This document shows, in pieces, positions 36,001-40,746 of a stretch of 48,552 bases of DNA. Source of the DNA: a virus (Duplodnaviria; Caudoviricetes); the IMG/VR virus record IMGVR_UViG_3300037502_002351, positions 1-48,552 of that record, one strand, 5' to 3'. The translations under genes and the position numbers were made by a program. The notes under the pieces were generated by a model. That model made no database searches, was not told where the DNA came from, and was given only the letters and a program-made list of their open reading frames with translations. Numbering within the stretch: the stretch's first letter is position 1; the number at the start of each line of letters is the position of its first letter.

Positions 36001-39000
36001 ATCGCCTAATGCAGCAAGCTGATTCGCCAATGCTATTCCTGCTTGATAATTTCCTGAACCAAAAGCTTTAGACATTTGAGAAGAAATTACTGCTCTCTTT
36101 TTTTCTGCGTCAGCTACAGTTTGAATAGCTAAAACTTCACTTTTATACATTCCCAATTTTTCAAGAGTTGCTCTTTTAGTTGCTAATAATTCTTCTCGAA
36201 CTATTTTTAATTTATCAGTATATGCAGATATAGTTGCCGATCTCATAGTTTTTACTGCTTCTATATTAACTTTTATTTGTCCATTTTCAATCGAAATTGC
36301 ATTAGCTAATTCATGATTTTTTTGAATTAATTCCATTGCTTCTGCGGCAGTCAATTGTTTGCCGTTTGCCACATCTTCAAGCAGTTTGTTTAAAACTGTC
36401 ATTTTATCAGAAGCTTCTTTATATGCTTTGTTTAAGTAATCAAAAATATTTGTAACCTGTTCACCGTTATCATAAACATCAGACATGGAATCCGCCATAG
36501 CATCCATTCCATCTGCTCCAGCGTATGTTGCATTAGCTAATTGTTCACTTTTCCTTTTTACTTTTTCAAAAGTAATCTCTAATGAGTTTGCTTGATTATT
36601 TGCTGAACTCATTTGGCTAACATACTCAATTAATGATTCCCTTGCTTTATTAAACGTTTGTGCATTTCCTCTTTCATATGCTTTTTGCATTTTATCAGTC
36701 AACGAAGCAATTTTAATAGAAAATGATTCTAACTCTTTAGGATTTAGTTTTGTAAGGTCAAGTGAAGATATAAAATCTCGTACACTTTTTCTGATTTCTG
36801 GATTAATTTCTAATTTGTTATACGCTTCCGCAACTTTTAAAACTTCATCATTAATTTTCATCGAAGTAGTTGCAAGTTCATTTTCTAATCTACGGAGATC
36901 TTGTTTCATTTTATTTATATATAATGGATCTGCACCTATCTTTTCTAATTCTTTAATTTGCTTTCGTCTGCGCTCTATTTGTTTTTCTAGTCCAAAAAAT
37001 CCATCTATTTTATCGATATTCTCTTCAAAGTTTTTTAAAGCATTTAATTTTATTTCTTCTTGTTTTAATTTAATTAACTCTTTTGTTGCTTCAATTTCCT
37101 TATCTATTGCATTTGCTGATTTTAAATGATATTGTCCCGTAGCGTCAATATGTGAAATAAGATTTGGGAAAATTTCCCCTAATTGTTGTTGAATTTTCAG
37201 ATACTCTTTTTCTTTCTCATTATCCCAATTACCACTTTCTTTTTCTGCTGAAAGTGCTTTATAAGAAGCGATTAATTCTTCAGTTCGCTCTTTATTAGTT
37301 GTTAATGCTTCAATATTTTTTTGTTGAGATTGTTCAAATTCTTCTTGTTTTTGTTTTGCATCTGAATAAAGTTTGATTAATTTTTCAATTGCAAAACCAA
37401 TTACAACAAAAACTGAACCAACAAGTGTAGAAGCAGCAAGACCTCTAAGAGCGGCAGTTGCCCCAGCGGTTACAATTCCTAGTCTACTCATTCCAGCAGT
37501 TAAACCTGCCGCAGCTAACTGTGCCCGTGTCATTCCTTCTGTTCCAAAAATTAGCGAAGTTGTAAATGTTCTAAATCTAGTGCTAAGTAATACAACTGTA
37601 GTGCCTAAAGTTCCAAATACACCTGATAATATACCTATCTTATCAATCATAAAAGAAGATGCGGTTGCAACGTCATTCAAAGTTTCAACCACAGCAATAA
37701 AGCCATCGGTTAACACTGCTGAAGAAGCACTTAAAACTACTTTGTTCCAAGCTGTATCAAGTCTATTCAATCTCGCTTCAAGAGAATCGGAATATTTAAT
37801 TTGCTCACGCATCGCACTACCTTGAGAATTTAAGGCAGTTTCTGAAGCTTCAACTGCTAGATTCCAGTTGTTCATTACATGATTGTTACTCTTCCAATTT
37901 GGAAGGGCTAGGTCATTTCTGCCTAGCTCTCATGCTTTCACATGAGATCGGACTGTACCATGTGCATTAAGCACCGCCTATTACAGTCTCTGAAGCTCCT
38001 CCATAGCAAAAATGCAGTAGGAGTTTGCCTGCTGATTGCCCAATCCTTTGACTTTTCAAGCCATCACGCTTGCTGTTTCCAGCTACGTTGTGGCGTCAAA
38101 GGCTCTAAGGGGTTTCCAGCAATTTAAGGCGTTTTACTTGCGCTAATCCTTAACGCAAGAAATCTGGAGAGCTGGTAACGACCTGCTAATGTACAATATG
38201 TTACCCTATCGGCTTTTTATCCGATAGCTCTTATGGTTTCCCATAAGTTCAGCATACATTTTCACCCTCGACTTTACACGTTAGGGTGGTGGAGACTCTT
38301 GGGGAGATTTTTGCTCTCTTAACGCTCACTCCCTATGCGTTACAAGGACTTGTGATGCAAGCCCTCTCGGTATTACCATATCCAAAAAGGACTTAGGTTT
38401 TACCGATTTTCCCCACTTATAATCTAATATGTTTCCATATTAGACGGCTACTTTTGTAACCCCAATATTTTGACGTTGTTCATCTGATAAGGTCGTCCAT
38501 TTACCAGCCAAATCTTCAAGTATATCACTTACAGGTCTAATGTTACCCGACATATCTCTAATTGAGATATTTACAGAATTTAAAATTGATTCTGCTTCAG
38601 ACATGGTAGTGATTCGGCTAATTATAGTTTTTAACAATCTTGTTACCCATGAGGCTTTTTATCCTCATGTTCTTACACTTTACCATCGTGTAAGTTCGGC
38701 ATACATTTTCTTCCTACTAGGAAGTCGGACACTCGTGGGGATATTGTTAGGTGGCTTTTAAGCACTCCCTTGACCCTCAATCCCTATGCTCTACGGTTCT
38801 GGGTGGTATGCCCAGTTACCTCGGTATTATCCCATATTATTGGAGGACTTTACCGATTTTGCCCGATTTTCACTAACATATTACTATGTTAGGCGGCAAA
38901 TATTTTACCGTTTCCTATAATTGAGCCGGATTCACGCGTTGTGCTTCCGATAGCAGCTATGTAACCAATTAAATCCGACAATTCAACACCAAACGTTTTT

Positions 39001-40746
39001 GCTGTCGATGCACTCTTGCGTAACCCATCAGATAGATCACGTGTGCTTATTGCAAAGTTATTCGTTCCTACCCCTGCTTTCGCAGTATTTGAAAGGGACT
39101 AGACTATACCATCATCTCAATAGAGATGCCTCTTGGTAGTCGTTGAGAGCTTCCCATATCTCATAAGAGACTTAGGGCTATCTCTGCTGATTACCCAATC
39201 CTTTACATTTTCAGATGTCAAACATCGTTTCCAATGTTGACTACTAGTAAAGGCTCTAAGGGCTTCCCAGCATATTCGAGGTTTTCTTATATCATCACTG
39301 ATATAAGGGACTTGTAAACAAATCCACTTCATTCAATTGATCAGCTATTTTTATAGAATCTTCTGCTGTAATATTAAAGTTCAACATTGCTGATGTTAAT
39401 GTGTCAACAGCAGCAGTTGCATCTAAATCTGATATATTTTGCAATACTTGGGCAGTTTTTGTAATGTCTACTAATTGGTTTTCTTCAAAACCCATCCGTC
39501 CAAAATCACCCATAATCTTTAGGACATCAGTTAGCTTCGAAGATAATTGATCAGAAATATTGACTGCTTCGTTTAATAATTCAGTTAATTTAAAATCAGG
39601 AATATCCATAACCCGATTAATATCAACCAATAAAGTGTCAATTTCCACTAGTCTGGAAATCATATCTTCCATCGCTCGAATTGGTGCATAAAAAGCAGTG
39701 GCACTAATCATCCAAATGGGAAATTTTACCATTGCAGTAGACATCATTTCAGCAAATGACATACCTGCCTGTTGAGCTGCTCCTGCTGCACTTTTTGCGT
39801 TTTGTGCTATTTGTTTAAATTGCATTTCTGTTTTTTGTAATTGCTGATTTAAATTTGCTGTTCTTGGTGTTAAATTATTTACACTGTCAATATACTGCTG
39901 TAAAGCACGATTATCTACAAACCCACCATGAGTAGTCTTTATTCTTTGTGCATTTAATAAAGCTTGCTGTCTTGCTAATTCAAGTTTATGTTCATTTTCT
40001 CTTATTCTATTTAGATTTTGTAAATGTTGCTCAAGTCTTTGTATTTGCTGAATATTTTTTGAATTATCAATTGCTTTATTTAATTTTGCTAAATTTTCAG
40101 CAGATATTTTACCTTCATTACTTAACTGTGTTAATTCTTGTTTTAATTTTCTTTTTGAATTAATTAGGTTTTCAGTTGCTTTTCTTTGTTGCTCTAAATT
40201 TGTTACAACTTTTTCGTTATTGAGATTTCCTTGTCCATCATATTTATATGTGATATCTGTAAAATTGTCTTTAAACTGCTCTGTCTTATTTTTTATTTTT
40301 CCCTGTCCGTCTTTATTTACAATTATTTTTTGCAATTTGTCTTGATTCAAAATTGCTTTTTCTAATGCTTTATTTTGTTGTTCTAATGCATTTGTTTCTT
40401 GTTGAATTGCTTGTTTTCTTTTGTCAATTATTTTAGTTGTCTTTTCAATAATTTCTCCACTTTGCAAGTATTTTCGATTAATTTTTTCAATAGTGCCATC
40501 TGTGTTTTTTACAACTTGTTCTTCTTCTTTATATGTTTTATTTAAACCTTGTATTATTTGTTTATGATTATCCATTGCCTTAGAGAAATCATTTATTGTT
40601 TTAATAGCTTTTTCGTCAATATGTATTTTCAACTCTAATTGATCAATTTTATTTTGTAGTTGTTTAAGTTGGTTATTCAGTTCATTAATTGATTTTTGAC
40701 TATCATCAAAAACAGCTTTAACCAATATCTTCAAGTCATTGTTCAA
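33046..40746 (-). CDS. Tape measure protein with SLT lytic transglycosylase domain; spliced complement join(40746..39322,39062..38907,38634..38459,38193..38153,37877..33046), 2209 aa
   Basis: Exons of 1425+156+176+41+4832 = 6630 nt read in frame: [42 protein letters not shown] motifs QESNFNP, GLMQLMP, AYNAG. Confidence 0.92.
37878..38152 (-). ncRNA. Group I intron D of tape measure gene (275 nt)
   Basis: P1 CTTGCGT/GCGCAAG; core AATTGCTGGAA, AATCAGCAG, TTCAGAGACT, GGTACAGTCC; terminal G. Confidence 0.9.
38194..38458 (-). ncRNA. Group I intron C of tape measure gene (265 nt)
   Basis: P1 GGT|TAC-AAAA-GTAGCC; core AAATCGGT, AATACCGA, GCATA/TATGC P7; terminal G. Confidence 0.88.
38635..38906 (-). 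ncRNA. Group I intron B of tape measure gene (272 nt)
   Basis: P1 CGGT/GCCG; core AAATCGGT, AATACCGA, GTAGAGCATA, AAATGTATGCC; terminal G. Confidence 0.88.
39063..39321 (-). ncRNA. Group I intron A of tape measure gene (259 nt)
   Basis: P1 GGAT/GTCC; core ATGCTGGGAA, AATCAGCAG, TCAACGACTA, GGTATAGTCT; terminal G. Confidence 0.9.

What the first reader, a model, noticed from the sequence alone, without database searches (positions are those of the whole stretch)
37878..39321. Four tandem self-splicing group I introns in the tape measure gene, with micro-exons of 156, 176 and 41 nt
Seen: four 259-275 nt inserts, each with a P1 helix placing U.G at the 5' splice site, a recognisable catalytic core and a terminal G. 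Removing all four gives one 2209-aa frame through the conserved tape-measure domain. None encodes an ORF. Established: phage group I introns mostly sit in DNA-metabolism genes, and multi-intron late genes are rare (Twort orf142 has three). Inference: tail assembly depends on four splicing events. Exon 2 (156 nt, phase 0 at both ends) could be skipped in frame, giving a 52-aa shorter protein, while unspliced RNA gives a 483-aa product. This could act as a splicing checkpoint or isoform generator for virion assembly.
Basis: partly seen in the sequence, partly recalled or inferred. Interest (0 to 1): 0.9.

Follow-up and report, generated by a model that had tools for sequence, protein, structure and literature searches.

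The report
Four introns split phage tail gene
The gene that sets tail length in this uncultured SPbeta-like phage is cut by four short inserts with the structure of self-splicing RNA introns, most likely selfish elements piled up at a conserved hotspot rather than a control switch; three introns in such a gene are already published, so this is a denser example of a known habit.

Summary
Four 259-275 nt inserts have U·G P1 helices, group I cores and terminal G. Removing them gives one 2209-aa SPbeta YomI-like tape measure protein. Separately scanned exons tile TIGR01760, and close DNA relatives lack I1, or I3 and I4, at the predicted borders. The checkpoint/isoform idea is not supported. The tape-measure core is an intron hotspot: 41 inserts at about 17 conserved sites, 10 with long, mostly nuclease-like ORFs. 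Of 81 clusters, 57 have no intron. Only 3 of 17 internal exons are frame-preserving, against about 6.5 by chance. Skipping exon 2 would delete one of the domain's most conserved stretches. Best reading: neutral pile-up of once-mobile introns, all of which would have to splice for a full-length protein. Splicing was not shown here. Precedents: B. cereus-group TMP introns (up to two per gene), ICP1 tape measure gene (three, RT-PCR), exon skipping in Twort and SIOphi. Four is the most in my survey and in the papers I read. The scan noted two-, three- and nine-intron tape-measure genes on other DNA (unchecked).

The parts
39322..40746 (-). Tape measure gene exon 1 (475 codons, TTG start after AAGGAG)
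   Evidence: TIGR01760 positions 2-126, E 1.2e-23; PF10145; upstream sequence
39063..39321 (-). Group I intron I1, 259 nt, phase 0, after codon 475; long P5 extension, no P7.1; P7 at about 39141 and 39108
   Evidence: RF00028 63.5 bits; P1 U·G; net 259 nt missing in run X10 contig; same site occupied in L148 and L154
38907..39062 (-). Exon 2, 156 nt, 52 codons, phase 0 at both ends; the only in-frame skippable exon
   Evidence: TIGR01760 127-177, E 4e-8; skip gives 2157 aa
38635..38906 (-). Group I intron I2, 272 nt, phase 0, after codon 527; extra helices between P7 and P3; P7 at about 38789 and 38704
   Evidence: RF00028 30.8 bits, E 1.7e-5; fold z -4.6; covariation
38459..38634 (-). Exon 3, 176 nt
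   Evidence: TIGR01760 178-231, E 0.0023
38194..38458 (-). Group I intron I3, 265 nt, phase 2, in codon 586; related to I2; P7 at about 38338 and 38257
   Evidence: fold z -6.5; covariation; 265 nt skipped in run X6 contig; no Rfam hit
38153..38193 (-). Exon 4, 41 nt
   Evidence: colinear with intron-free YomI homologs L001, L002, L005; joined to both neighbours in X6 contig
37878..38152 (-). Group I intron I4, 275 nt, phase 1, in codon 600; related to I1; P7 at about 37988 and 37957
   Evidence: RF00028 56.6 bits; 275 nt skipped in run X6 contig; alignment to I1
33046..37877 (-). Exon 5, 4832 nt: end of the tape-measure core, then the long body with an SLT lytic transglycosylase domain
   Evidence: TIGR01760 261-339; PF01464 E 1.3e-35
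41694..42862 (-). Free-standing nuclease-like gene in two overlapping frames (99 + 290 aa), about 1 kb upstream; link to the introns not shown
   Evidence: PF18780 HNH_repeat in both parts; similar to the ORF inside the L161 tape-measure intron, E 1.5e-21

Best explanation
Four ORF-less inserts with group I intron structure interrupt the conserved core of an SPbeta YomI-like tape measure gene, and they most likely accumulated one by one as selfish elements that are predicted to splice themselves out of the late mRNA. Shown: gene identity, borders, ribozyme pairings, presence/absence in close relatives, and a lineage-wide hotspot of about 17 sites at conserved codons. Inferred: each intron folds on its own, uses guanosine at its U·G 5' site and its terminal G at the 3' site, and all four must leave for the 2209-aa protein. 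Inferred: introns arrived by endonuclease-driven homing (own ORF since lost, or a nuclease acting in trans) or by recombination between related phages, and persist because only precise loss restores an essential gene. Skipped or retained products are likely by-products without a selected role.
For: Exons tile TIGR01760 as 2-126, 127-177, 178-231, 261-339. Gap-free alignment across all four junctions to SPbeta YomI (48%) and L005 (58%). DNA contigs of close relatives: X6 skips 275 and 265 nt at I4 and I3 and keeps I1 and I2; X10 lacks a net 259 nt at I1; X3 has I2-I4 and a different stretch about 302 nt long near I1. Survey of 194 loci: 37 further inserts, about 17 sites in all, at more conserved positions than random (0.64 against 0.49; 0 of 20,000 draws as high). 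Ten inserts over 1 kb hold 289-489-codon frames; 7 of 10 have Pfam hits at E<=0.01: DUF559/Vsr-like in 4 (2 over cutoff), HNH_repeat in 2 (1 over cutoff), DUF4379 in 1. Intron number is scattered on the protein tree. The four are two unlike types, I1 with I4 and I2 with I3, each as close or closer to introns at other sites in other phages, so they are not one tandem duplication. ICP1's three tape-measure introns splice in vivo (PMC10448857, passages).
Against: No RNA evidence for splicing of these four. No ORF-bearing version was found at any of the window's four sites (the two other site-475 inserts are also short), so homing at these sites is inferred. The window's closest clade is richer in introns than the rest (6 of 7 clusters), which fits shared nuclease pressure but also some benefit. 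Published authors have proposed phage introns as switches (PMC11878797, Discussion). I2 was present in all four runs laid. The survey favours uninterrupted genes (best 80 of 389 and 80 of 357 kept).
Confidence: 0.8

Rival explanations
1. The array has been domesticated as a checkpoint: four serial splicing steps delay or gate tail assembly according to GTP, Mg2+ or translation state.
For: Retaining any one intron truncates the protein to 483-608 aa. A switch role for phage introns is discussed in PMC11878797 (Discussion read). Six of seven clusters in the nearest clade carry at least one intron.
Against: I1, I3 and I4 are individually absent in close relatives; 57 of 81 clusters have none and three 90%-identity clusters mix intron-bearing and intron-free members; sites and intron types differ between relatives.
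Confidence: 0.08
2. Skipping exon 2 yields a working 2157-aa isoform and a second, shorter-tailed virion class.
For: Exon 2 is phase 0 at both ends. Exon skipping between tandem group I introns is reported for Twort orf142 and for SIOphi (47.2% of transcripts; PMC11878797). I1's 5' segment pairs slightly better with the start of exon 3 than with exon 2 (-1.6 against -0.2 kcal/mol).
Against: Exon 2 is TIGR01760 127-177 with highly conserved ends. Frame-preserving internal exons are 3 of 17 against about 6.5 expected. The pairing energies are marginal, exon 5 scores best for I1 (-4.0), and I1's segment after P7 prefers its own 3' end (-2.9 against -1.0). I1 and I2 are different structural types. 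X10 lacks I1 and could not skip.
Confidence: 0.04
3. The upstream free-standing nuclease (41694-42862) cuts intron-free tape-measure alleles and carries the ORF-less introns along (collaborative homing), which would explain the high count. This is a sub-case of the best explanation.
For: It lies about 1 kb upstream, has PF18780 repeats and resembles the ORF inside a tape-measure intron of L161 (E 1.5e-21); similar genes lie in loci L007, L161 and L164, which carry ORF-less introns.
Against: The gene is split into two frames overlapping by 4 nt and may be decayed; no target site was determined; such genes are common near phage tail operons (PMC10448857).
Confidence: 0.15
4. The gene is a dead remnant of a defective prophage, or an assembly artefact.
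For: The record is a 48.5-kb partial phage contig; no RNA was examined.
Against: The joined frame has no stop in 2209 codons; all P1 and P7 helices are intact; contigs from runs of other studies carry I1+I2 (X6) or I2-I4 (X3).
Confidence: 0.03

Closest known systems
Vibrio phage ICP1 tape measure gene, four exons and three introns (PMC10448857; passages read)
   Same: Several introns in one tape measure gene; some introns empty of ORFs; splicing shown by RNA-seq and RT-PCR
   Different: Three introns, one or two with HNH-3 genes, in a lytic Vibrio phage; here four, all ORF-less, in an SPbeta-like phage. Site homology was not compared.
TMP-IVS1, IVS2, IVS3a/b of Bacillus cereus-group prophages (PMC2504315; part 1 of 2 of the prophage section and passages read)
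   Same: Mostly ORF-less group I introns in prophage tape measure genes, patchy among related phages; like introns at different sites and unlike introns at one site
   Different: Three sites and at most two introns per gene in the text read, IA1/IA2 classes, lambda01-like and other prophages; here four per gene and about 17 sites in the YomI lineage. Site homology was not compared.
Staphylococcus phage Twort orf142, three introns with exon skipping (Landthaler and Shub 1999; paper not held; known from its title and citation in PMC11878797)
   Same: Tandem group I introns with short exons in a late tail gene
   Different: Different gene; skipping is shown there and only possible here
Bastillevirinae DNA polymerase and terminase genes with two or three introns; SIOphi exon skipping (PMC11878797; abstract, introduction, part of methods, Discussion and passages read)
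   Same: Multi-intron genes in Bacillus phages; in vitro and in vivo splicing
   Different: No tape measure introns in its main text (0 occurrences); many carry nuclease ORFs. The paper names the terminase in Results and the polymerase in Discussion as the skipped gene.
SPbeta yomI (NC_001884)
   Same: Homologous gene, 48% identical over the core, in like order with yomM, yomH and yomG
   Different: No intron in the yomI core

Membership tests
Group I intron | P1 helix with U·G pair at the 5' splice site | tested here: met
   4 of 4; G at intron position 11, 10, 11, 10
Group I intron | Terminal G at the 3' splice site | tested here: met
   4 of 4; borders agree with empty alleles for I1, I3, I4
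Group I intron | Catalytic core P3, P4, P6, P7, P8 | tested here: met
   RF00028 alignments for I1 and I4; folds and covariation of P3, P4, P8 with invariant P7 for I2/I3
Group I intron | RF00028 score at or above 50 bits | tested here: inconclusive
   Met for I1 and I4; I2 30.8; I3 no hit; none reported in the whole-window scan. PMC11878797 calls the model incomplete.
Group I intron | P10 pairing with the 3' exon | tested here: inconclusive
   Three to four pairs possible by eye for I3 and I4; duplex energies near zero
Group I intron | Guanosine-dependent self-splicing of the RNA | not testable with these tools
   No listed run is on record as an RNA holder; needs RT-PCR or in vitro assay
Subgroup IA (I2, I3) versus IB/IC-like (I1, I4) | Extra helices between P7 and P3 (IA) or long P5 extension (recalled definitions) | tested here: inconclusive
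   Present as described in folds and alignments; no subgroup models were available
Mobile (homing) group I intron | Intron-encoded endonuclease ORF | tested here: not met
   Longest stop-free run 49-79 codons; ORF-bearing inserts occur at other sites in relatives
TP901-family tape measure protein (YomI-like) | TIGR01760/PF10145 core, long body, position before Dit and Tal genes | tested here: met
   downstream DUF6558/SPP1_Dit and YOMG_N genes
Regulated alternative-splicing unit | Conserved intron pair and selection for frame-preserving exons | tested here: not met
   3 of 17 internal exons in frame against about 6.5 expected; I1 absent or replaced in close relatives

The most novel reading that the evidence does not exclude
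Alternative splicing sets virion shape: skipping exon 2 between I1 and I2 gives a working tape measure protein 52 residues shorter, so one phage genome builds two tail lengths, while serial splicing of four ribozymes meters tail output.
Probability: 0.05. Interest if true: 0.85.

Novelty: new member of a known kind. Interest (0 to 1): 0.3.

Why it matters
Practically, gene callers split this gene into 483-aa and 1609-aa pieces, and a standard whole-window Rfam scan misses all four introns, so tail genes of SPbeta-like phages are easily misannotated. The survey shows a roughly 250-codon stretch of one structural gene hit at about 17 sites, a good natural series for studying how ORF-less introns spread. 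Close relatives with different intron subsets offer a ready comparison for the open question of whether phage introns cost, help or are neutral. A working skip isoform would be surprising, but the evidence leans against it.

Tried and rejected
No RNA holder listed among public runs; this is no evidence on expression, and RNA-level splicing stays open. A pattern joining an intron 3' end to the exon-3 start was unspecific: 0 of 120 loci held a tape-measure match. A scan with the exon-5 start found 0 relatives among 119 pattern hits. The first protein alignment was too patchy to scan with. A covariance model of the I2/I3 family was too long to calibrate and was not built. Promoter scan 37600-41800: 24 sites against 18.2 +/- 4.9 in shuffles, nothing specific. 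P10 and P9.0 duplex energies are too small to rank skip routes. A single tandem duplication was rejected because there are two intron types. A retroelement around the FGE-sulfatase gene (25115-26185) was considered and dropped: no template/variable repeat pair in 24000-29500. Paper searches: 'four group I introns'+'phage' listed 2 papers, neither on a phage gene by title (listing only); SPbeta+yomI+intron 0; crAss+tape measure 0; others. The library lacks most subscription papers, and I did not open supplements; Supplementary Table S1 of PMC11878797 (over 100 phage introns) may list genes with four or more.
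Full report
Observation. The minus strand of 40746-33046 holds a tape measure gene broken by four inserts at 39321-39063, 38906-38635, 38458-38194 and 38152-37878. Each insert follows an exon U that pairs with a G ten or eleven bases into the insert, ends in G, and has no stop-free run above 79 codons. The inserts are 41-46% GC in a window mostly near 30%. Rfam RF00028 scores I1 63.5, I4 56.6 and I2 30.8 bits in a local scan and misses I3; the whole-window gathering scan reported none of them. 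I3 folds into P1-P6, P7.1, P8 and P9 helices at z -6.5, and the P7 pairing is present. In an alignment of I2, I3 and three related inserts, 95% of cells pair and 31 of 54 pairs change on both sides; 0 of 500 shuffles reach this and slid controls give 3-6 pairs (five sequences, structure drawn from I3).

Junctions. Three lines agree. Exons scanned separately match TIGR01760 positions 2-126, 127-177, 178-231 and 261-339 (exon 4 is too short to scan). The joined core aligns without gaps at the junctions to SPbeta YomI (48%) and L005 (58%). Contigs of close relatives in DNA runs show empty alleles: X6 skips 275 and 265 nt at I4 and I3 while keeping I1 and I2; X10 lacks a net 259 nt at I1 (contig depth 3); X3 carries I2-I4 and a different stretch, net about 302 nt, near I1. 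I laid 4 of the 21 listed runs; no piece spans the whole stretch.

Context. The record is a 48,552-nt virus contig. Gene content and order follow SPbeta: integrase like yomM, tape measure gene with an SLT domain, Dit-like and YomG-like genes, holin-like and amidase genes, a large serine recombinase, and a class II ribonucleotide reductase. I scanned 30 of 58 listed ORFs with Pfam. The closest named relative is a prophage in a record titled Sporosarcina globispora DSM 4 (81% in exon 1). A Bacillaceae-type host is an inference.

Survey. I mapped inserts in 194 homologous loci with a spliced aligner. Its profile included the window's joined protein as one of 56 rows, and it favours U and G borders, so those borders in relatives are not independent evidence; Rfam was run only on L001 and L003-L007. 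It found 37 distinct inserts besides the window's four, at 17 sites between codons 345 and 599 (16 if the doubtful L161 site is merged). Some sites are 6 or 9 nt from the window's: L001 at 525 against 527, and L006-L008 at 596 against 599. Sites fall at conserved positions (0.64 against 0.49, 0 of 20,000 random draws as high). Of 195 sequences, 188 cover the core and 7 were dropped as partial. At 90% identity they form 81 clusters, each counted by its most intron-rich member: 57 with none, 11 with one, 10 with two, 2 with three, and the window with four; three clusters are mixed. Collection scans kept the best 80 of 389 and 80 of 357 by E-value, which under-samples interrupted genes, so four need not be the lineage maximum. 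Four later loci showed uninterrupted matches and were not in the count. Ten inserts exceed 1 kb and hold 289-489-codon frames; seven have Pfam hits at E<=0.01, four DUF559/Vsr-like, two HNH_repeat and one DUF4379, several below cutoff. None of the ten lies at one of the window's four sites.

Intron types. I1 and I4 share a long P5 extension and lack helices between P7 and P3; I2 and I3 have such helices and share a 3' end. The best matches of I2 and I3 are inserts at other sites in other phages (L165, L136), and I1 and I4 match L016 about as well as each other. This points to separate arrivals. Subgroup names rest on recalled definitions and were not tested.

Mechanism. Shown: structure, borders, polymorphism and hotspot. 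Inferred from established group I chemistry: guanosine attack at the U·G site, then exon joining at the terminal G, four times per mRNA. Any retained intron stops translation at 483-608 aa, and of seven skip combinations only loss of exon 2 stays in frame. Inferred from the survey: introns entered conserved codons by homing, lost or never had their own nuclease, and are kept because imprecise loss is lethal. A split nuclease-like gene 1 kb upstream resembles an intron ORF of L161 and could have helped in trans; this is untested.

Against a regulatory role. Three of the four introns come and go among close relatives. Across multi-intron genes 3 of 17 internal exons preserve frame, against about 6.5 expected from phase frequencies. 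Both ends of exon 2 rank in the top 5% for conservation. For skipping: I1's 5' segment pairs a little better with exon 3 than exon 2, but the energies are marginal, and skipping is documented elsewhere.

Known systems. Tourasse and Kolsto describe group I introns at three sites of B. cereus-group prophage tape measure genes, up to two per gene in the text I read, mostly without a nuclease (PMC2504315). Barth et al. show four exons and three introns in the ICP1 tape measure gene by RNA-seq and RT-PCR (PMC10448857, passages); I was led to it by the scan's notes and checked it. Weglewska et al. report Bacillus phage genes with two or three introns and 47.2% exon skipping in SIOphi, and cite Twort orf142 (PMC11878797). 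I found no paper with four introns in one phage tape measure gene or introns in yomI-like genes, in a library that lacks most subscription papers; supplements were not read. The scan's own unchecked notes list two-, three- and nine-intron tape measure genes on other genomes, and cargo-bearing ones; no look-alike of this stretch was listed.

Verdict. The feature is real and precisely described. It is a new, dense member of a known kind. Best explanation 0.8; interest 0.3; functional isoform or checkpoint about 0.05-0.1.

Noticed in passing
window 4806-5063 and 5555-6519 (+): Two more group I introns, in the class II ribonucleotide reductase gene (4380-8026): 258 nt without ORF and 965 nt with a LAGLIDADG ORF (5590-6330) in its 5' part; removal gives 808 aa. 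The contig holds six group I introns.
   Followed up: partly
window 41694-42862 (-): Nuclease-like gene with PF18780 repeats split into two frames overlapping by 4 nt: frameshifted, decayed or translationally coupled.
   Followed up: partly
window 37870-37895 (-): The end of I4 has a purine-rich stretch before an ATG-TAA that overlaps the in-frame ATG of exon 5, so unspliced RNA might start the 1609-aa C-terminal part; the stretch lies in a predicted hairpin.
   Followed up: no
L016:340-1500 (-) and L165:1246-3243: Two other tape measure genes with three inserts each, at sites different from the window's.
   Followed up: partly
L001:5631-6771: Intron with a zinc-finger plus Vsr/DUF559-like ORF, inserted 6 nt upstream of the I2 site and using a similar guide sequence.
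   Followed up: partly
L152:1166-2308, L006:2815-3993, L169:3562-4536: Long ORFs inside tape-measure inserts with no Pfam hit at E<=0.01.
   Followed up: no
window 25115-26502 and 28000-29007 (-): GC-rich patch (up to 47%) with an FGE-sulfatase-fold gene among tail genes; no repeat pair suggesting a retroelement nearby.
   Followed up: partly
window 40819-41562 (-): Membrane-anchored 247-aa gene between the nuclease-like gene and the tape measure gene, followed by a terminator-like hairpin at 40811-40778; a similar gene sits at the same place in L001.
   Followed up: no
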